Positions 1 through 9,008 of a stretch of DNA of 64,000 bases are shown here, one piece after another. The position numbers and the translations under genes are program-made. Every line of letters starts with the position of its first letter. The first letter of the stretch is position 1. The stretch comes from Escherichia coli (lineage in GTDB: Bacteria; Pseudomonadota; Gammaproteobacteria; Enterobacterales; Enterobacteriaceae), in assembly GCF_013315695.1 (NCBI RefSeq), contig NZ_CP054353.1, one strand, 5' to 3'. The notes beneath the pieces were generated by a model. The model searched no databases. It worked only from the letters and a program-made list of their open reading frames with translations, and was not told where the DNA came from.

Positions 1-100
1 TGAGCGTGAAGTTAACGTTATCCAACGCAACGACGCCGGGATAACGCTTATTTCCTGCCACCACTTTTGCTACCGGGACTGCTTCTGTTGCCGTGAACAT
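1..100 (-). CDS. yphE: ABC transporter ATP-binding protein, 5' end only (gene continues beyond window start)
   Basis: Minus-strand ATG at 100..98 preceded by a GAGG Shine-Dalgarno; translation MFTATEAVPVAKVVAGNKRYPGVVALDNVNFTL resembles the N-terminus of sugar ABC ATPases; position downstream of yphF fits the yph cluster. Confidence 0.55.
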   Translation of the reverse strand, partial: MFTATEAVPVAKVVAGNKRYPGVVALDNVNFTL

Positions 101-122
101 AGGGACCTCTGCGAATCAGCGA

Positions 123-1106
123 TTAGGGCAGACCATCAACGTGCGTTGCCAGCCACTGTTTACCGTCTTCCGTTTTGGTATAGAGATCGATAGGCACCTG
201 AATCACTTTTTCACCGTCGGCTTGTTTATTGATAACCTTCAAAGTTTGCGCGAAAACAGCATTGCCCATTTTCTTACCGGAAATATCCACCACCGCTTTC
301 AACACCTGATTGTTTTCCAGCTCCTGAGCAATTTCAGTGGTCATATCCGAACCGAAAACAGCAATTTTTCCGGCCTGATTTTGATTACGTACCGCTTTTA
401 CCGCGCCGAGTGTCGCTCCGCCCGATTCCCCCATAATGGCGTTGAGATCCGGCGTGGAGATAATCAGTTTTTCACCAACGGAAATCGCTTTATCTAAAAC
501 AGTCCCTTCCTGATTAGCGACTATTTGCGCGCCGGGAACGCGGGATTTTAATACTTCTTCAAATCCTTTACGTCGCTGCACACAAACTTCAAAGGCTTCG
601 CAATTGATGACGGCAATTTTCGGCTGGTCAATTTTGTTGGCAATAAAATAATCGGCGGCAGCATTACCCAGTTTTTTACCAAATTCCAGCGGATCGCCGA
701 CCAGATACGCCGAGACATATTTATCGACGCCTTTTTGATTAATACAGGTGTTGTAGCAAATCACCGGAATACCCGCTTCACTGGCGCGACGAACGGTACG
801 GCTACTGCCATTTTCAGACACTGCCGATAAAATAATGGCATCGACATTACGCGCCACGAGGGTATCAACAAAGGTACTTTCTTTCGAAATATCACCCTGG
901 GCGTTAGTTTCAATTAACTGTACCTGTACTGAAGAATCTTTTGCCGCATCCTGAACGCCCTGACGCACGCCAGCGTAATATCCCTGGGTATCAAGGTATA
1001 TTGCGCCAATGGTCATTTCTTTATCCGCAGCCCTGGCAAATAGTGCGCTACCTAATAGCGTAGCCATTAATAATAGATTACGGGTTGTTCTCATTTTTTT
1101 AGGCAT
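123..1106 (-). CDS. yphF: periplasmic sugar-binding protein of an ABC transporter
   Basis: 327-aa ORF with N-terminal signal peptide (MRTTRNLLLMATLLGSALFARA) and periplasmic binding protein fold features. Confidence 0.85.
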   Translation of the reverse strand: MPKKMRTTRNLLLMATLLGSALFARAADKEMTIGAIYLDTQGYYAGVRQGVQDAAKDSSVQVQLIETNAQGDISKESTFVDTLVARNVDAIILSAVSENGSSRTVRRASEAGIPVICYNTCINQKGVDKYVSAYLVGDPLEFGKKLGNAAADYFIANKIDQPKIAVINCEAFEVCVQRRKGFEEVLKSRVPGAQIVANQEGTVLDKAISVGEKLIISTPDLNAIMGESGGATLGAVKAVRNQNQAGKIAVFGSDMTTEIAQELENNQVLKAVVDISGKKMGNAVFAQTLKVINKQADGEKVIQVPIDLYTKTEDGKQWLATHVDGLP

Positions 1107-1202
1107 AGTGCCTCCTGTAGGGTTTTTATTTACAACGGCTTATTTTAATTATTTGAGCGTGAGCGGCAGCGCGTGCCGCTCAAATATTACAGTTAATAAG
1201 GT

Positions 1203-4200
1203 TTAGTGAACGCGGTTAAAAATAAAAGGCATCACGGTGGTGAATAATGCTGCTTTCGGCCAGGCCGGATTAATCGCCGTCAATTCAGCGCGAGCAGATT
1301 CATAGTGCGCAACCTCCCCGAGTCCCGCGGACGCCAGCATCGCCACCATCAGGCATTTTTCTTTATGCTGCTGTTGTAAATCGCCATACAGCGACAACAG
1401 GTCAGGTTGTGAAACAGCAAAGAAATCCGCCTCAATACTGGTTTTCGCCATCTCTTGCGCCCACTGTTTCATTTCACTAAACAGTTGCTGTGCGGTTTGC
1501 TGTTCACCCAGCAGTCGCAGCGCCATTCCTTGCCAGAAGAGATAATCAACCGGCTGATCGTTGTAATAACTGTGAATGTTAATGGTGCGATCGCCAGTCG
1601 CCGCCAGACGTAAACAACGCATCGCTTCAGTTTCATCACCCTGCGCGTTGGCGCATATCGCCTGCCAGAACCAGATGTCGTTATCAGTTTGCCCCGGTAA
1701 ACGGCCTTCGCTTAAATTCTCCGGATAATGCAGCGCGGCATGAAGCAGTTCGCTGGCCTGCTGCGACTCTCTGGCATCAAGATGCTGCCAGGCGCGTAAT
1801 AACTGGTTGAGGATAAACTGACTGGTGATCTTCCCTTCCCCGCCTTCCCACGGGTGGAATTTGCGCGTGGCGAGAATGTCCGCCGCTTTGTCTGCCTGCC
1901 CCGTGAGATGCCACAAATTGAGCAGTTCTGCGGTCATGTCGTCGCGTTTCAGCGCAATTTCCAGATTATTTTCCAGACGCGCCAGTCGTTTCTCCGGTGT
2001 GGCTCCGCTTAACTTATCCAGCAAATCCCGTTCGAAAAGCAGACGTGCATCCTGCGGCGCAAGCTGATAAGCATTATCAAGATAACGCGCGGCCAGCTCA
2101 TAATCGTGCTGCTTATTCCACGCATGGATCGCTAACCCGCGCCAGCCGTCGGCAAACTCCGGCGACATCTCTACGCAACGTTGCCATAAGGCAATGGCTT
2201 TGCCGTAGCTACGCTTGTTGTAGTAGAAGCAGGCCAATAAATGACGGGCAAACCAGCACTCTTCAATACTCTCCAGCGCCGCCACTTCTTCCAGCGTATT
2301 CGGGAAACGGACAAACTGTGGGAAGACATCAATGGCTTTTGCGACCAGTTCGCCGCGTTTAGCTTTCGGCAATAAACTCGCCTGCAGATAAAGCGGCAGC
2401 GTGCGCTGGCAGTCCAGTGCGTTCAGCATCTCTGCCGCCAGGGCGGGCATGCCCCAGTTAATCAGTTGCCCGGCGGTCATCAGGGCGTTAACGTCTCGTC
2501 CCTGACACAGACCGCGCCACTGCGCGAGGGCTGATTCGCTACGACCATCGAACCAGTTCAGCCACCACAGAGTGGCGTTCAGCGGATAATCGCGCAGCAG
2601 TTTCTCGCGCTGCAAACGCGCGTTGTCCTGACGACCACTTAACACCAGCAGCAGATTATGCAGGCAAAGCACTTCCTGATTGGTTGGGCAGGCGCGAAGA
2701 CTTTGTTGGCAAAAATCCAGACCAGCGTCGAAGTGACCATTACGCGCCGCCAGTCGTGCCAGACCATAATAGCCACCGGCTTTGCTGTTGCCGCTCCAGA
2801 CCGCCCGCCAGAAATCCTCTTCGGCTTGTTGATATTGTCCCTGACGTTCGTAAGCACTGGCGCGAATCAAACTGGCCTGTCCGCACTGCGGATTTTTGTT
2901 CAGCGCATGTGCGCGTTTTAGCGCCTGAGTGGCATACGCCACCGCTTGCGGGAAATCGGCGCGGTTATATTCCAGCATCGCCAGCGCCAGGTTACAGCGA
3001 TAATCCAGCGGATCCAGCGCCACGCCGCGCAGGTAGTAATCGAACGGTGAACGGCTGGCGTGATGATATTGCTCCAGATGCTGACCGATAAACCAGGCTT
3101 CATCTGTACTGGTAATGTCTTGTGCTGACAGTGGCGCTTTGGCGACGTCCGGCAACGGCAACGCTTGCGGCTGATGTTCCTGATAACTCAGTATGATATT
3201 GCCGTCGGCATCGGAGAGCTCAATGGTTAGTCTGTCAGGATTGATACCGTGCAACACGCCCTGGATGGCGGTCGCTGGCATCAGTGCCACGGCATCATCA
3301 AGTAACGCGTTGCATTTGCCGATTTCGCGGATCGCCAGGCGGTATCCGTTCAACGGAGAGATGGCATACAGCCCCCACTCAATCCCCCGCTCGCTACGCT
3401 GGAGTTTTATCACCGCATCGCGGGAGGCATTTTGCACCATGCCCAGAGAATGGTAAGGCAGGAAATACTGCTCGAAACGCTTCTCTTCGTACGCATCAAG
3501 CCAGGTAAAATCAGGCTGGTTATCGGCAAAAATACCGGTCATCAGTTCGATATATGGGCCGTTATTGTCGGTCAGGCTCTTATCCCACGCCTGGCCGAAT
3601 TCACTGTGTCCCCAGCTCCACTGTTTTTTACCTGGCGCGATGTGGTGGTTGGCAACGTGTAGCAAACCGCCATCTTCATCGTGACACCATGCGCCAACAA
3701 AATCGTACTGCGATTTTTCGGCCATATACGAAGTCGGCACTGGCACATTTTTATAGCGAGAGATGTCCACTCCGGCGGAGTAGTCCACTTTGTAGTAAGT
3801 GCCGGTGGCGATGGGGAAAGCGGAGACGGCCCGTTTGCCGTGATCAAACACCGCCGTTACATCCGGCGGGAAGACGCTCTGATGCCCTTCACCCCCTTTC
3901 ACTGCCGGGTTGGCCCACCACAAGAAATGACGCGGCGTGGCGTTGCCGTTATAGACGCGGCTGGCGATTTCCAGCGCCGCCCGGTCAGGGCGCAGGGTGA
4001 AACCTGTCATCACCTGTAAACCATGCATCGGCTCCGTTTCGCCTACCCACACCGTCTGTGCGCCGTCTTCATGGGCTTCGAGGGTGAAATCAACGGGCAT
4101 AAAGGTGGTCGGGCGATGGTGTTGCGGCCAGTTAAACTCAATCCCGCCGGAGATCCACGGTCCCAGCAGCCCCACCAGCGCAGGTTTAATGACTTCATTG

Positions 4201-4484
4201 TGATAGACAAAATCGCGCTGTTTCACTTTATCCCATGCGCGATGCACCCGACCGCCCAGTTCCGGCAGGATCATCACTTTGATGTAGTCGTTTTCCAGCC
4301 ACACCGTCTGCCAGGATTTCAGGGTTTTCTGCTCGCTCAGCGTATCGGTCACGCCGTAGGGATAAACCGCGCCGGACGATCCCTGATAAACGCGATTTTC
4401 CAGGAACATGGGATGTATATCCTGCGGCCCGGTTTCATAGGTCGGGATCTCAACGCGCTCTTGCCACACTTTTACTGGAGTCAT
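1203..4484 (-). CDS. yphG: large TPR-repeat protein of unknown function
   Basis: Long ORF (to 4577 in the track); I place the start at the internal ATG at 4484 (MTPVKVWQ...), which has a GAGG Shine-Dalgarno 7 nt upstream and leaves a normal divergent intergenic region with yphH. TPR-like repeats in the C-terminal half. Confidence 0.8.
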   Translation of the reverse strand: MTPVKVWQERVEIPTYETGPQDIHPMFLENRVYQGSSGAVYPYGVTDTLSEQKTLKSWQTVWLENDYIKVMILPELGGRVHRAWDKVKQRDFVYHNEVIKPALVGLLGPWISGGIEFNWPQHHRPTTFMPVDFTLEAHEDGAQTVWVGETEPMHGLQVMTGFTLRPDRAALEIASRVYNGNATPRHFLWWANPAVKGGEGHQSVFPPDVTAVFDHGKRAVSAFPIATGTYYKVDYSAGVDISRYKNVPVPTSYMAEKSQYDFVGAWCHDEDGGLLHVANHHIAPGKKQWSWGHSEFGQAWDKSLTDNNGPYIELMTGIFADNQPDFTWLDAYEEKRFEQYFLPYHSLGMVQNASRDAVIKLQRSERGIEWGLYAISPLNGYRLAIREIGKCNALLDDAVALMPATAIQGVLHGINPDRLTIELSDADGNIILSYQEHQPQALPLPDVAKAPLSAQDITSTDEAWFIGQHLEQYHHASRSPFDYYLRGVALDPLDYRCNLALAMLEYNRADFPQAVAYATQALKRAHALNKNPQCGQASLIRASAYERQGQYQQAEEDFWRAVWSGNSKAGGYYGLARLAARNGHFDAGLDFCQQSLRACPTNQEVLCLHNLLLVLSGRQDNARLQREKLLRDYPLNATLWWLNWFDGRSESALAQWRGLCQGRDVNALMTAGQLINWGMPALAAEMLNALDCQRTLPLYLQASLLPKAKRGELVAKAIDVFPQFVRFPNTLEEVAALESIEECWFARHLLACFYYNKRSYGKAIALWQRCVEMSPEFADGWRGLAIHAWNKQHDYELAARYLDNAYQLAPQDARLLFERDLLDKLSGATPEKRLARLENNLEIALKRDDMTAELLNLWHLTGQADKAADILATRKFHPWEGGEGKITSQFILNQLLRAWQHLDARESQQASELLHAALHYPENLSEGRLPGQTDNDIWFWQAICANAQGDETEAMRCLRLAATGDRTINIHSYYNDQPVDYLFWQGMALRLLGEQQTAQQLFSEMKQWAQEMAKTSIEADFFAVSQPDLLSLYGDLQQQHKEKCLMVAMLASAGLGEVAHYESARAELTAINPAWPKAALFTTVMPFIFNRVH

Positions 4485-4601
4485 GGTGCCCTCAATATTA
4501 ACAAGACATACTGAATTAAAAGATTTGTGGCAGTGTATTGAACAATCTGGCAATGTTTTCGCGGAATAATCACGCAATTAACTAAACAAGGTTTAGTGAA
4601 G

Positions 4602-5795
4602 ATGAGAGCCTGCATTAATAATCAACAGATTCGCCACCATAACAAATGCGTGATTCTGGAACTGCTGTACCGGCAAAAGCGCGCCAATAAATCAACGCTG
4701 GCCCGGCTGGCGCAAATTTCGATTCCGGCGGTCAGTAATATTTTGCAGGAACTGGAAAGCGAAAAACGGGTGGTGAATATCGACGATGAAAGTCAGACGC
4801 GCGGACATAGTAGCGGTACATGGCTGATTGCGCCGGAAGGTGACTGGACGCTGTGTCTGAACGTGACGCCCACCAGCATTGAGTGTCAGGTCGCTAATGC
4901 CTGTTTAAGTCCGAAAGGCGAATTTGAGTATTTACAGATTGATGCACCGACGCCGCAGGCGCTGCTGTCCGAAATCGAAAAATGCTGGCATCGCCACCGT
5001 AAATTGTGGCCGGACCGTACCATCAACCTGGCGCTGGCAATCCACGGTCAGGTTGATCCGGTGACTGGCGTGTCGCAAACCATGCCGCAAGCGCCGTGGA
5101 CAACGCCGGTTGAGGTAAAGTATCTGCTGGAAGAGAAGCTCGGCATTCGGGTGATGGTCGATAATGACTGCGTGATGCTGGCGCTGGCGGAGAAATGGCA
5201 AAATAATTCGCAGGAACGGGATTTCTGCGTGATCAACGTTGATTACGGTATTGGCTCGTCGTTCGTGATTAACGAGCAAATTTATCGCGGCAGTTTGTAT
5301 GGTAGCGGACAGATTGGTCACACCATCGTTAATCCGGATGGTGTCGTCTGCGACTGCGGACGTTACGGCTGCCTGGAAACCGTCGCCTCGTTAAGCGCAT
5401 TAAAAAAACAGGCGCGGGTATGGCTAAAATCACAACCGGTTAATACTCAGCTTGATCCTGAAAAACTGACAACAGCGCAGTTAATCGCTGCCTGGCAGAG
5501 TGGAGAACCGTGGATCACCAGTTGGGTTGATCGCTCTGCCAACGCCATTGGTTTGAGTCTGTATAACTTCCTCAACATCCTCAATATTAATCAGATTTGG
5601 TTGTACGGTCGCAGTTGTGCCTTTGGTGAGAACTGGCTTAATACCATTATTCGCCAGACGGGATTTAACCCGTTCGACCGCGACGAAGGACCGAGCGTGA
5701 AAGCGACGCAAATTGGCTTTGGGCAATTAAGCCGCGCACAGCAGGTGCTGGGAATTGGCTATTTGTATGTTGAGGCGCAGTTACGGCAGATTTAA
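4602..5795 (+). CDS. yphH: ROK-family (NagC/XylR-like) transcriptional regulator
   Basis: ORF with N-terminal HTH and ROK sugar-kinase-like motifs (CDCGRYGCLE); ATG at 4602 preferred over the upstream GTG at 4596. Confidence 0.85.
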   Translation: MRACINNQQIRHHNKCVILELLYRQKRANKSTLARLAQISIPAVSNILQELESEKRVVNIDDESQTRGHSSGTWLIAPEGDWTLCLNVTPTSIECQVANACLSPKGEFEYLQIDAPTPQALLSEIEKCWHRHRKLWPDRTINLALAIHGQVDPVTGVSQTMPQAPWTTPVEVKYLLEEKLGIRVMVDNDCVMLALAEKWQNNSQERDFCVINVDYGIGSSFVINEQIYRGSLYGSGQIGHTIVNPDGVVCDCGRYGCLETVASLSALKKQARVWLKSQPVNTQLDPEKLTTAQLIAAWQSGEPWITSWVDRSANAIGLSLYNFLNILNINQIWLYGRSCAFGENWLNTIIRQTGFNPFDRDEGPSVKATQIGFGQLSRAQQVLGIGYLYVEAQLRQI

Positions 5796-5972
5796 CTGAT
5801 ATAACAATGAGATGACTATTCTACAGAACTGCGATTGGTATATCCGCTGAAACATGATGCTGCAGATGTCACAAAGCAATTATCTGAAAAAATGAAGATT
5901 ATCAATTTTATCTTTAAAAAATCTTAGATGCCCGGTTATTATAAGTGATATTTTAAATACGGAATTATTGTT

Positions 5973-6170
5973 ATGGATAACCCTGGTCCTCTTGCTGCGC
6001 TTATGTTTGGCTTTGTTATGTTGGTGTTACTAATTTTCATGTTCGCCTTTTATTTCATTGGGCGCTCAATTAAAAATAAAATAATATCTACAATATTTAT
6101 TGTTCTCTCTACCATTTCATTAATATTGATAATTACATTTGCTTTTTTTATTATTCATATATTGCAATAA
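5973..6170 (+). CDS. hypothetical small membrane protein (65 aa, two predicted TM helices)
   Basis: ORF in a very AT-rich stretch between yphH and the glyA terminator; strongly hydrophobic translation; weak Shine-Dalgarno; followed by a stem-loop plus T-run at about 6190..6218. Confidence 0.3.
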   Translation: MDNPGPLAALMFGFVMLVLLIFMFAFYFIGRSIKNKIISTIFIVLSTISLILIITFAFFIIHILQ

Positions 6171-6235
6171 ACTTCACCTTTTTAGTCAAAAGGCTTCCCG
6201 AAGGAAGCCTTTTTTCAACAGATTAACCGTTTCGC

Positions 6236-7489
6236 TTATGCGTAAACCGGATAACGTGCGCAGATGTCGAGAACTTTACCTTTGATGCGCTCGATAACAG
6301 CTTCATCATTGATGCTGTCCAGCACGTCACACATCCAGCCAGCCAGTTCTTTCGCTTCGGCTTCTTTAAAGCCACGACGGGTAATCGCCGGAGTACCTAC
6401 ACGAATACCGGAAGTCACAAATGGGCTCTTCGGATCGTTCGGTACGCTGTTTTTGTTGACAGTGATGTTAGCACGGCCCAGAGCGGCGTCTGCTTCTTTA
6501 CCGGTCAGGTTTTTATCAACCAGATCAACCAGGAACAGGTGGTTATCAGTACCGCCGGAAACCACTTTGTAGCCGCGTTCGAGGAACACTTCTACCATCG
6601 CTTTGGCGTTTTTCGCGACCTGCTGCTGGTAAGTTTTGAACTCAGGTTCCATCGCTTCTTTCAGAGCAACCGCTTTACCGGCGATTACGTGCATCAACGG
6701 ACCGCCCTGACCACCAGGGAAAACGGCAGAGTTCAGTTTTTTGTACAGCTCTTCGCTACCACCTTTCGCCAGGATCAGGCCGCCGCGCGGACCCGCCAGG
6801 GTTTTGTGAGTGGTGGTAGTAACAACGTGAGCATGAGGAACCGGGTTCGGGTAGACGCCAGCAGCAACCAGGCCCGCAACGTGCGCCATATCAACGAACA
6901 GGTAAGCACCGATGCTGTCAGCGATTTCACGCATTTTCGCCCAGTCCACCACGCCGGAATATGCAGAGAAGCCACCGATAATCATTTTCGGTTTGTGTTC
7001 TTTGGCTTGTTTTTCCAGATCGGCGTAGTCGATATGACCGGTAGCATCGATACCGTAAGGAACGATGTTGTACAGTTTACCGGAGAAGTTAACCGGAGAA
7101 CCGTGAGTCAGGTGACCGCCATGCGCCAGATTCATACCCAGAACGGTATCGCCTGGTTCCAGCAACGCAGTGTACACCGCAAAGTTAGCCTGGGAGCCGG
7201 AGTGCGGCTGGACGTTAGCGTAGTCAGCGCCGAACAGTTCTTTCGCACGATCGATCGCCAGTTGTTCAACGATATCAACATACTCGCAACCGCCGTAGTA
7301 GCGTTTGCCCGGATAACCTTCAGCATATTTGTTGGTCAGCTGAGAACCCTGAGCCTGCATTACGCGCGGGCTGGTGTAGTTTTCGGAGGCGATCAGTTCG
7401 ATGTGCTCTTCCTGACGTACTTTTTCCTGCTCCATAGCCTGCCACAGTTCGGCATCATAATCGGCAATGTTCATTTCACGCTTTAACAT
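6236..7489 (-). CDS. glyA: serine hydroxymethyltransferase
   Basis: 417 aa from [22 protein letters not shown]; PLP-binding motifs; unmistakable GlyA sequence. Confidence 0.97.
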
Positions 7490-7817
7490 CCGCATCTCCT
7501 GACTCAGCTAACAATAAAATTTTTGGCCTTTATAGGCGGTCCTGTTGGACAACGGCGAACAGTATAACCGAATCATTGTGCGATAACAGGTCTTGACAAA
7601 GGAATTTACGCAAACGATTACCTTCAGGCTACGCAAGGCTTTGGAGAATAAAGAGCTTGCAACCGGAAACGGATTTCTTTTCAGGTTTGTGATGCAAATT
7701 TTTCACTTCATCACATTCTTTCTGAAAAACACCAAAGAACCATTTACATTGCAGGGCTATTTTTTATAAGATGCATTTTAGATACATCAATTAAGATGCA
7801 AAAAAAAGGAAGACCAT

Positions 7818-9008
7818 ATGCTTGACGCTCAAACCATCGCTACAGTAAAAGCCACCATCCCTTTACTGGTGGAAACGGGACCAAAGTTAACCGCCCATTT
7901 CTACGACCGTATGTTTACTCATAACCCAGAACTCAAAGAAATTTTTAACATGAGTAACCAGCGCAATGGCGATCAACGTGAAGCCCTGTTTAACGCTATT
8001 GCCGCCTACGCCAGCAATATTGAAAACCTGCCTGCGCTGCTGCCAGCGGTAGAAAAAATCGCGCAGAAGCACACCAGTTTCCAGATCAAACCGGAACAGT
8101 ACAACATCGTCGGTGAACACCTGTTGGCAACGCTGGACGAAATGTTCAGCCCGGGGCAGGAAGTGCTGGACGCGTGGGGTAAAGCCTATGGCGTCCTGGC
8201 TAATGTATTTATCAATCGCGAGGCGGAAATCTATAACGAAAACGCCAGCAAAGCCGGTGGTTGGGAAGGTACTCGCGATTTCCGCATTGTGGCTAAAACA
8301 CCGCGCAGCGCGCTTATCACCAGCTTCGAACTGGAGCCGGTCGACGGTGGCGCAGTGGCAGAATACCGTCCGGGGCAATATCTCGGCGTCTGGCTGAAGC
8401 CGGAAGGTTTCCCGCATCAGGAAATTCGTCAGTACTCTTTGACTCGCAAACCGGATGGCAAAGGCTATCGTATTGCGGTGAAACGCGAAGATGGCGGGCA
8501 GGTATCCAACTGGCTGCACAATCACGCCAATGTTGGCGATGTCGTGAAACTGGTTGCTCCAGCAGGTGATTTCTTTATGGCTGTCGCAGATGACACACCA
8601 GTGACGTTAATCTCTGCCGGTGTCGGTCAAACGCCAATGCTGGCAATGCTCGACACGCTGGCAAAAGCTGGCCACACAGCACAAGTGAACTGGTTCCATG
8701 CGGCAGAAAATGGCGATGTTCACGCCTTTGCCGATGAAGTTAAGGAACTGGGGCAAGCACTGCCGCGCTTTACCGCGCACACCTGGTATCGTCAGCCAAG
8801 CGAAGCCGATCGCGCTAAAGGTCAGTTTGATAGCGAAGGTCTGATGGATTTGAGCAAACTGGAAGGTGCGTTCAGCGATCCGACAATGCAGTTCTATCTC
8901 TGCGGCCCGGTTGGCTTCATGCAGTTTGCCGCGAAACAGTTAGTGGATCTGGGCGTGAAGCAGGAAAACATTCATTACGAATGCTTTGGCCCGCATAAGG
9001 TGCTGTGA
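7818..9008 (+). CDS. hmp: flavohemoglobin (nitric oxide dioxygenase)
   Basis: 396 aa with N-terminal globin domain and C-terminal FAD/NAD reductase domain; divergent from glyA as in E. coli. Confidence 0.97.

What the first reader, a model, noticed from the sequence alone, without database searches (positions are those of the whole stretch)
1..5795. Uncharacterised yph carbohydrate-type locus with a very large TPR protein
An ABC transporter ATPase (partial), a periplasmic sugar-binding protein and a divergent ROK-family regulator flank a roughly 1100-aa protein with TPR-like repeats and no obvious catalytic signature. The substrate and function of the cluster are, to my knowledge, not established. 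The annotated start of the large gene is ambiguous: the ATG at 4484 has a good Shine-Dalgarno, whereas the longest ORF start at 4577 would leave only about 25 bp to the divergent yphH start.
Basis: inference. Interest (0 to 1): 0.3.

Follow-up and report, generated by a model that had tools for sequence, protein, structure and literature searches.

The report
Orphan sugar operon with mutarotase-fold giant
This is the real but still unexplained E. coli yph sugar-uptake operon; its 1,093-residue "TPR protein" YphG is predicted to carry a sugar-mutarotase-type domain and belongs to a large, widespread family that nobody has characterised.

Summary
Window 1-5795 is the E. coli yphE'(first 33 codons)-yphF-yphG / yphH locus, present in 5,425 of 5,426 complete E. 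coli genomes. No function is published for any yph gene in the searchable literature.

Two points of the reading need correcting.

1. The start is not really ambiguous. ATG 4484 (1,093 aa) is used by current RefSeq and K-12 annotation. It is the conserved N-terminus in all orthologues. The TTG-4577 extension carries in-frame stops in other genera and lies inside a conserved non-coding motif.

Across 80 species the protein is cytoplasmic. It travels with a sugar regulator (ROK or AraC), a monosaccharide-class transporter and, often, beta-/alpha-galactosidase-type enzymes.

Best reading: YphG is a cytoplasmic enzyme that processes an imported free sugar, possibly galacto-configured, by ring-opening chemistry. 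The substrate and reaction remain unknown.

Interest is moderate: a deorphanisation target, not a surprise.

The parts
1..100 (-). 5' end of yphE (first 33 codons of the ABC transporter ATP-binding subunit); the rest lies beyond the window edge
   Evidence: Translation MFTATEAVPVAKVV...; RefSeq annotation of the identical region; full protein is most similar to AraG/XylG/AlsA/MglA-type ATPases, all below equivalog cut-offs.
123..1106 (-). yphF, periplasmic sugar-binding protein (327 aa)
   Evidence: Pfam Peripla_BP_4 116 bits. Weak, sub-threshold similarity to allose, galactose, AI-2, rhizopine and ribose binding proteins. Nearest solved structure is 5hsg, whose deposited name gives no ligand or function.
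1203..4484 (-). yphG CDS including stop, 1093 aa, cytoplasmic DUF5107 + TPR protein
   Evidence: RefSeq and K-12 annotation; homologues of 1084-1109 aa aligning over 99-100%; AF2 model pLDDT 94.7, pTM 0.92.
3450..4340 (-). YphG residues 49-345: aldose-1-epimerase (mutarotase)-fold domain (Pfam DUF5107), the candidate catalytic or sugar-binding domain
3150..3449 (-). YphG residues 346-445: second, poorly conserved beta-sandwich domain
   Evidence: DSSP of the AF2 model; only 1% of columns >=90% conserved.
1206..3107 (-). YphG residues 460-1093: TPR-type helical solenoid of about 35 helices
1833..1865 (-). YphG residues 874-884, conserved loop FHPWEGGEG inside the helical region
   Evidence: Only conservation hotspot in the helical part (F876 0.94, E880 0.97, G881 0.90); non-helical in the model. 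Its role as an active-site lid is inference.
4489..4493 (-). Shine-Dalgarno GAGGG of yphG, 4 nt upstream of ATG 4484-4482
   Evidence: Sequence; 'TTGAGGG' plus ATG conserved in Escherichia, Enterobacter, Klebsiella and Budvicia.
4575..4577 (-). TTG start of the longest ORF (1124 aa); rejected as the start
   Evidence: In-frame stops between this position and the ATG in Enterobacter, Klebsiella, Budvicia, Rahnella and Aeromonas. All homologue N-termini begin M..VKVWQE. The TTG lies inside the conserved non-coding motif.
4570..4597 (-). Conserved intergenic motif ACTAAACcttGTTTAGTtaATTGCGTGA (7-bp inverted repeat), candidate YphH operator abutting the yphH start
   Evidence: Unique in the 64-kb window, 0 expected by chance. 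A degenerate form occurs only in the 13 ROK-type loci, at the same position, and in no AraC-type locus; alignment. Binding by YphH is inferred, not shown.
4602..5795 (+). yphH, ROK-family transcriptional regulator (397 aa), divergent from yphG
   Evidence: Pfam ROK 113.9 bits and N-terminal MarR/HTH_24-like winged helix. The sequence contains CDCGRYGC, which I recognise as the ROK zinc motif. Similar to NagC and Mlc but far below their equivalog cut-offs. Same start in RefSeq and K-12.

Best explanation
The yph cluster is a repressor-controlled uptake-and-conversion system for a free, monosaccharide-sized sugar that has not been identified. YphH (ROK) is proposed to repress the divergent yphGFEDCB operon through the conserved motif at 4570-4597, until the sugar or a derivative binds it. 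YphDEF import the sugar. YphG, in the cytoplasm, binds it in an aldose-1-epimerase-type pocket and carries out ring-opening acid/base chemistry: anomer or ring-form interconversion, possibly extended to an isomerisation. The TPR solenoid acts as an integral structural shell, and its conserved FHPWEGGEG loop contributes to or closes the site. YphB (a true mutarotase) and YphC (a Zn-dehydrogenase with an aldose-dehydrogenase-like C-terminus) are accessory steps. Shown here: gene content, the start codon, the predicted fold, the conservation pattern, the inferred cytoplasmic location (no signal-peptide-like N-terminus) and the conserved genomic partners. Inferred: the chemistry, the role of the loop, repression by YphH and the galacto-configured nature of the sugar.

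For: Conservation: it is concentrated in this domain, with 20% of columns >=90% conserved against 1-6% in the helical parts. Many are invariant His/Glu/Asp/Asn/Lys/Arg.

Context in 80 species: an AraC or ROK regulator within 3 genes in 57 loci and a sugar transporter in 53 (MFS Sugar_tr in 42, ribose-type ABC in 11). The transporter type is swapped between relatives: Aeromonas has ROK-YphG-MFS-epimerase. Several genomes have only regulator + MFS + YphG.

Compartment: 79/80 YphG homologues and all mutarotases lack a signal peptide. In Bacteroidota the co-located GH2-like enzymes, GH97, sulfatases and esterases have one. YphG therefore acts after the secreted exo-glycosidases and the transporter, i.e. 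on the released sugar.

Sugar identity hint: recurrent partners are a GH2-like enzyme (33/80) whose closest solved homologue, 8u01 (E 1e-112), is placed in subfamily GH2_20, reported as beta-galactosidase (PMC12243196). GH35, GH36, GH97 and GalM also recur.

Operon: same-strand genes with 11-96 bp gaps and no terminator-like site between yphG and yphF.
Against: No biochemical, genetic or expression evidence exists for any step. Sequence-level kinship to aldose-1-epimerases is not detectable: there is no Pfam Aldose_epim hit and hhalign probability is 2.4%. Equivalence of GalM's catalytic His/His/Asp/Glu could not be established. Only a non-significant alignment pairs E313 with the catalytic Glu, and the Arg of the mutarotase 'NRI' motif appears replaced. 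If YphG were simply a mutarotase, a second mutarotase-type gene in the same locus would be redundant; one lies within three genes in 14 of 80 loci (gene orders). An 1,100-residue protein is also extravagant for a reaction that proceeds spontaneously. I could not inspect model coordinates, so the proposed contact between loop 874-884 and the pocket is untested. The galactose theme comes from non-enterobacterial loci and may not transfer to E. coli, which already has Mgl and GalP.
Confidence: 0.45

Rival explanations
1. YphG is a glycoside hydrolase (or phosphorylase/lyase) of a new family. A small glycoside is imported, YphG cleaves it in the beta-supersandwich domain, and the partner mutarotase (YphB/GalM) equilibrates the released anomer.
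Confidence: 0.22
2. YphG is not an enzyme but a sugar sensor or scaffold. The mutarotase-like domain only binds the sugar, and the TPR solenoid transmits this to the regulator or transporter by protein-protein contact.
For: Genuine TPR repeats above Pfam cut-offs resemble protein-binding scaffolds such as OGT, SPINDLY and Ctr9. YphG is almost always adjacent to a regulator and a transporter. In several loci no other enzyme is present.
Against: The partner regulator (ROK vs AraC) and transporter (ABC vs MFS) families are swapped between lineages while YphG stays the same, which argues against a conserved docking partner. ROK and AraC regulators bind their effectors directly (established knowledge). 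The helical part is poorly conserved on the whole (1-6% of columns), apart from one Glu/Gly-rich loop that looks like a catalytic or lid element rather than a binding surface. The N-domain has far more invariant charged residues than binding alone would need.
Confidence: 0.12
3. The locus is a cryptic or decaying remnant in E. coli with no current physiological role.
For: No phenotype or inducing condition is reported. No sigma-70 consensus promoter was found in the yphG-yphH spacer. Some database clusters contain truncated E. coli YphG forms, and IS1 lies nearby in some strains.
Against: The 8-kb region is kept in 5,425/5,426 complete genomes, with >=80% coverage in 5,406. The main full-length cluster has 18,305 member sequences. 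The ORF, its SD, the regulator and the intergenic motif are conserved across genera.
Confidence: 0.1

Closest known systems
Free-standing aldose 1-epimerases / galactose mutarotase (GalM, YeaD, yeast hexose-6-P mutarotase, and YphB itself, PDB 3nre)
   Different: Only 8-15% identity and no detectable sequence-profile relationship. YphG is three to four times larger, with an extra beta-domain and a 630-residue TPR solenoid. The conserved residue set differs (e.g. HH-R at 122-124, KK at 286-287, DNQPD at 321-325). Catalytic equivalence is unproven.
PDB 5cd6 (BDI_1685, Parabacteroides distasonis; structural-genomics 'TPR-domain containing protein')
   Different: About half the length (575-580 aa), so it lacks most of the solenoid. 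The deposited name assigns no function, and no paper in the searched library mentions the entry.
Ribose/arabinose/xylose-type (monosaccharide-class) ABC importers with a ROK or AraC regulator, e.g. rbs, ara, xyl, als, mgl, ytf systems
   Same: YphF is Peripla_BP_4; YphD resembles RbsC/AraH (E 1e-65 to 1e-67); YphE is a duplicated ATPase like AraG/XylG (E 1e-130 and below). A divergent sugar-responsive regulator is present.
   Different: No subunit reaches any equivalog cut-off, so specificity is unassigned. None of those systems contains a DUF5107/TPR protein.
NagC / Mlc / XylR ROK repressors
   Same: ROK domain, N-terminal winged helix and a CxCGxxGC motif (which I recognise as the ROK zinc motif); divergent arrangement next to the regulated operon.
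   Different: Scores of 112 and 109 bits against cut-offs of 650 and 530. YphH forms its own small, long-branched cluster with an atypical linker motif (PMC4288165). The candidate operator ACTAAAC-N3-GTTTAGT does not look to me like the AT-rich NagC/Mlc operators; this was not compared here.

Membership tests
Pfam DUF5107 (PF17128) | HMM match above the gathering score | tested here: met
   189 bits vs cut-off 24.4, residues 39-324.
TPR-repeat proteins | TPR HMM matches above cut-off and an alpha-solenoid fold | tested here: met
Aldose 1-epimerase family (Pfam PF01263, GalM-type) | Sequence-profile match to the family | tested here: not met
   No Aldose_epim hit at E <= 0.01; hhalign vs YphB+GalM profile gives probability 2.4%.
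Aldose 1-epimerase family (Pfam PF01263, GalM-type) | Galactose-mutarotase beta-supersandwich fold | tested here: met
Aldose 1-epimerase family (Pfam PF01263, GalM-type) | Catalytic His/His/Asp/Glu constellation (L. lactis GalM H96, H170, D243, E304; established knowledge) | tested here: inconclusive
   E313 and H122/H123 are plausible counterparts in non-significant alignments. The counterpart of H170 was not identified, and the 'NRI' Arg seems replaced.
Aldose 1-epimerase family (Pfam PF01263, GalM-type) | Mutarotase activity on a reducing sugar | not testable with these tools
   Needs NMR or polarimetric assays.
Glycoside hydrolases / polysaccharide lyases (CAZy) | Sequence match to a GH/PL family or closest fold match to a GH/PL catalytic domain | tested here: not met
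Ribose-type (monosaccharide-class) ABC sugar importer: YphDEF | Peripla_BP_4 binding protein, BPD_transp_2 permease, tandem-ABC ATPase | tested here: met
Ribose-type (monosaccharide-class) ABC sugar importer: YphDEF | Equivalog-level match that would assign a substrate | tested here: not met
   All hits are far below curated cut-offs, e.g. YphF 64 vs 335 bits for the allose binding protein.
ROK transcriptional repressors: YphH | ROK domain plus N-terminal DNA-binding winged helix and Zn motif | tested here: met
   ROK 113.9 bits; MarR/HTH_24 hits at residues 16-54; CDCGRYGC present in the translation (identification as the ROK zinc motif is my own knowledge).
ROK transcriptional repressors: YphH | Orthology to NagC or Mlc | tested here: not met
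   111.7 vs 650 and 108.9 vs 530 bits; a separate cluster in PMC4288165.

The most novel reading that the evidence does not exclude
YphG/DUF5107 founds a new class of cytoplasmic sugar-converting enzymes. In this class a mutarotase-fold pocket is completed by a loop from an integral TPR solenoid. It catalyses a reaction not yet catalogued, for example a ring-form, configurational or aldose-ketose conversion of a galacto-configured sugar released by beta-galactosidases, or cleavage of a small glycoside by a fold not yet known to do so. The class is conserved from E. coli to Bacteroidota, Firmicutes, Bifidobacterium and some eukaryotes.
Probability: 0.3. Interest if true: 0.6.

Novelty: new variant of a known kind. 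Interest (0 to 1): 0.4.

Why it matters
YphG is a core gene of the best-studied bacterium, yet it belongs to a family with no characterised member. The family comprises about 3,900 clusters at 50% identity and was found in at least 597 species. It is prominent in gut Bacteroidota and Firmicutes and in marine flavobacteria, next to plant- and algal-glycan degrading enzymes. Identifying its reaction would close a gap in E. coli metabolism and assign a substrate to one of E. coli's orphan sugar ABC transporters (YphDEF) and its third ROK regulator. It would also annotate a recurrent, unexplained component of polysaccharide-utilisation loci. The analysis turns "large TPR protein" into concrete experiments: a defined start codon, a candidate pocket with named residues, a candidate operator and a short list of sugars.

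Tried and rejected
- Upstream TTG-4577 start: rejected. Other genera carry in-frame stops, the N-termini are conserved, and the TTG lies in a conserved non-coding motif.
- Sequence-level link to aldose-1-epimerases: hhalign is not significant. Focused sub-alignments gave only a suggestive register for E313.
- Secreted or periplasmic YphG: rejected; no signal-peptide-like N-terminus in 79/80 homologues (a crude hydrophobicity heuristic).
- CRP site in the intergenic motif: by eye the right half-site does not fit TGTGA-N6-TCACA; not pursued.
- Known RNA elements: Rfam found none in 1-7900.
- Promoter/terminator scan: nothing above background, and no sigma-70 consensus in the yphG-yphH spacer.
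- Literature: six full-text searches for yph genes, DUF5107, PF17128, 5CD6, b2549 and P76585 gave only incidental mentions such as microarray lists and PCR targets.
- AFDB fold search: library unavailable.
- First AF2 submission: alignment too large.
- Substrate from YphF: the nearest solved relative carries no ligand or function in its deposited name.
Full report
**What is there**

The window is E. coli chromosome. The first 8 kb match 5,425 of 5,426 complete E. coli genomes, at 100% identity to a UK bloodstream isolate.

RefSeq annotation of the identical region and the ORF list give the following genes:
- yphE: only its first 33 codons, window 1-100, minus strand.
- yphF: 123-1106 (-).
- yphG: 1203-4484 (-).
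- yphH: 4602-5795 (+).
- glyA and hmp follow.

The rest of the operon (yphD permease, yphC Zn-dehydrogenase, yphB aldose-1-epimerase) lies just beyond the window's left edge. The genes are on the same strand with 11-96 bp gaps. No terminator-like site lies between yphG and yphF. This fits a yphGFEDCB transcription unit divergent from yphH.

**The start codon**

The longest ORF starts at TTG 4577 (1,124 aa). ATG 4484 gives 1,093 aa and is preceded by GAGGG at 4489-4493. Four lines of evidence favour ATG 4484:
- Both PGAP and the current K-12 record (NP_417044.4, a revised record) use it.
- Full-length homologues are 1,084-1,109 aa and align over 99-100% of the 1,093-aa form. Their N-termini all begin M(1-3 residues)VKVWQE.
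- In Enterobacter, Klebsiella, Budvicia, Rahnella and Aeromonas the region equivalent to the 31-codon extension contains in-frame stops. The TTGAGGG-ATG element is conserved.
- The TTG lies inside a conserved non-coding motif.

**Regulatory region**

The 117-bp spacer contains ACTAAACcttGTTTAGTtaATTGCGTGA at 4570-4597. It has a perfect 7-bp inverted repeat and abuts the yphH start.
- It occurs once in 64 kb, with none expected by chance.
- A degenerate version is found only in the 13 loci that have a ROK regulator, always at the same position, and in no AraC-type locus.
- Across genera the sequence is kept rather than the pairing. This favours a protein operator over an RNA hairpin.

That YphH binds it is inference. 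YphH has a ROK domain, an N-terminal winged helix and a CxCGxxGC motif, which I recognise as the ROK zinc motif. It is far below the NagC and Mlc equivalog cut-offs. The literature describes it as uncharacterised (PMC4288165, PMC9308461).

**What YphG is**

Pfam finds DUF5107 (E 1e-55, residues 39-324) plus several TPR families. The only solved relative by sequence is 5cd6, a structural-genomics entry without an assigned function.

An exhaustive search with residues 1-480 found 3,920 clusters at 50% identity, 886 of them below 1e-30. Most of the best hits are 1,000-1,170 aa long, down to about 35% identity in the N-terminal region. The solenoid is therefore an inherited, integral part of the protein.

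An AlphaFold2 model built from 69 diverse sequences is very confident (pLDDT 94.7, pTM 0.92). It shows beta-structure to residue 435, then about 35 helices.

- They include 3nre, which is E. coli b2544, i.e. YphB from the same operon, and L. lactis GalM.

Foldseek agrees.

At sequence level the kinship is invisible. There is no Aldose_epim hit and hhalign probability is 2.4%. YphG is therefore not a demonstrable member of that family, only of its fold.

Conservation is concentrated in the mutarotase-like domain. There, 20% of columns are >=90% conserved, including E116, N118, H122, H123, R124, D208, H215, E313, D325 and E333. The figure is 1-6% elsewhere. The single helical hotspot is the loop FHPWEGGEG at 874-884.

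A focused alignment pairs E313 with the epimerases' catalytic Glu but is not significant. I could not access model coordinates. Equivalence of the catalytic residues and contact between the loop and the pocket therefore remain untested.

**Genomic context**

I analysed the best 80: Enterobacterales, Aeromonas, Photobacterium, Lachnospiraceae, Paenibacillus, Bacillus, Bifidobacterium, Prevotella, Parabacteroides, Mucilaginibacter, Chitinophaga and marine Flavobacteriia.

Clustering of neighbouring ORFs and Pfam annotation gave these counts per 80 loci:

| Neighbour | Loci |
|---|---|
| AraC-family regulator | 47 |
| ROK regulator | 13 |
| MFS Sugar_tr transporter (median 84 bp away) | 45 |
| Ribose-type ABC system | 12-17 |
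| GH2-like protein of ~930 aa (median 194 bp away) | 33 |
| YphB-type epimerase | 12 |
| GalM-type epimerase | 7 |
| Zn-dehydrogenase | 10 |
| GH35 | 8 |
| GH36 | 6 |

GH97, GH31, SusC/D, sulfatases and GDSL esterases also occur.

Further points from the context:
- In Aeromonas the module is ROK / YphG-MFS-epimerase.
- In several Bacteroidota it is only AraC / MFS-YphG.
- Regulator and transporter families are exchanged between lineages while YphG stays constant.
- YphG homologues (79/80) and all the mutarotases lack signal peptides. In Bacteroidota the co-located GH2-like enzymes, GH97, sulfatases and esterases carry them. In Firmicutes the GH2-like enzymes do not (a simple hydrophobicity heuristic).

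YphG therefore always acts in the cytoplasm, downstream of the glycosidases and the transporter.

The GH2-like partner's closest solved homologue is 8u01 (E 1e-112). The CAZy group places it in subfamily GH2_20, which has beta-galactosidase activity on decorated plant glycans (PMC12243196). Together with GH35, GH36, GH97 and GalM this gives a galactose-flavoured context outside the enterobacteria.

**Interpretation**

The best-supported reading is that YphG is a cytoplasmic enzyme acting on an imported, monosaccharide-sized free sugar. It would use a mutarotase-type pocket for ring-opening chemistry, with the TPR solenoid as an integral shell. The yph cluster would then be its uptake and regulation system in E. 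coli (confidence about 0.45).

Weaknesses of this reading:
- A second mutarotase-type gene within three genes in 14/80 loci would be redundant if YphG only anomerises.
- The protein's size is unexplained.
- The catalytic residues are unverified.

Rivals:
- A new glycosidase family (0.22). It fits the hydrolase + mutarotase pairing but not the fold ranking, the transporter classes or the compartment pattern.
- A non-catalytic sensor or scaffold (0.12). The swapped partners and the conservation pattern argue against it.
- A cryptic remnant (0.10). Near-universal conservation argues against it.

**Novelty and verdict**

What this analysis adds:
- The fold assignment.
- The residue-level conservation map.
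- The cross-phylum partner set and the compartment logic.
- The resolved start codon.
- A candidate operator.

YphG is best filed as a new variant of a known kind: a mutarotase-fold domain in an undescribed architecture. Interest is moderate (0.4). It is a good deorphanisation target in a core E. coli gene and in gut and marine glycan loci, but it would not surprise a specialist.

Noticed in passing
window 5796-6189 (between yphH and glyA): An AT-rich segment of about 390 bp replaces the REP-like element that K-12 has here. It is present in full in only 2 of 5,426 complete E. coli genomes. It carries a 65-codon, very hydrophobic ORF (5973-6170) with promoter-like hexamers at 5913-5942 and 6126-6154. 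There is no Pfam, plasmid or phage match. A GC-rich hairpin plus T-run (about 6189-6216) follows it.
   Followed up: partly
window 4570-4597 and the equivalent position in L002, L008-L010, L012-L014, L016-L018, L021: A conserved intergenic motif with a 7-bp inverted repeat, restricted to loci with the ROK regulator. It is a candidate YphH operator and overlaps the rejected TTG start and the alternative GTG 4596 of yphH.
   Followed up: partly
L016, L017, L018, L020, L021 (Citrobacter, Cedecea, Hafnia, Enterobacter) vs L002/L003 (Klebsiella): Enterobacteria carry two YphG lineages. One is the yph type (74-83% identical, with the ABC transporter and Zn-dehydrogenase). The other is 54-56% identical and linked to an MFS transporter and a YphB-type epimerase instead. 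Klebsiella species appear in both lineages: K. pasteurii (P0018) in the yph type and K. oxytoca (P0115) in the second.
   Followed up: partly
L030, L046, L048 (Paenibacillus, Ruminiclostridium), next to the YphG homologue: A free-standing ~331-aa protein weakly matches both DUF5107 (E 7e-8) and DUF4432 (E 9e-6). It looks like a short paralogue of the YphG N-domain, located where E. coli has YphB.
   Followed up: no
protein clusters P0009, P0033, P0002, P0028, P0040; hits H2, H3, H5: There are sizeable clusters of truncated E. coli YphG (900 aa with 1,109 members; 692 aa with 1,402 members). Some strains have an IS1A insertion within the 8-kb region. I did not determine whether these are assembly fragments or real disruptions.
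   Followed up: no
protein P0021: A YphG 74% identical to the E. coli protein is labelled 'Beauveria bassiana D1-5' (a fungus). The high identity suggests bacterial contamination of that assembly.
   Followed up: no
L001 5439-6533 (yphC, outside the window): YphC matches the 'glucose dehydrogenase C-terminus' Pfam family (E 2e-10). It also gives sub-threshold hits to L-threonine 3-dehydrogenase and scyllo-inosose 3-dehydrogenase (IolM), among other Zn-dehydrogenases. It could be an aldose or cyclitol dehydrogenase, for which the anomer supplied by YphB/YphG would matter.
   Followed up: no
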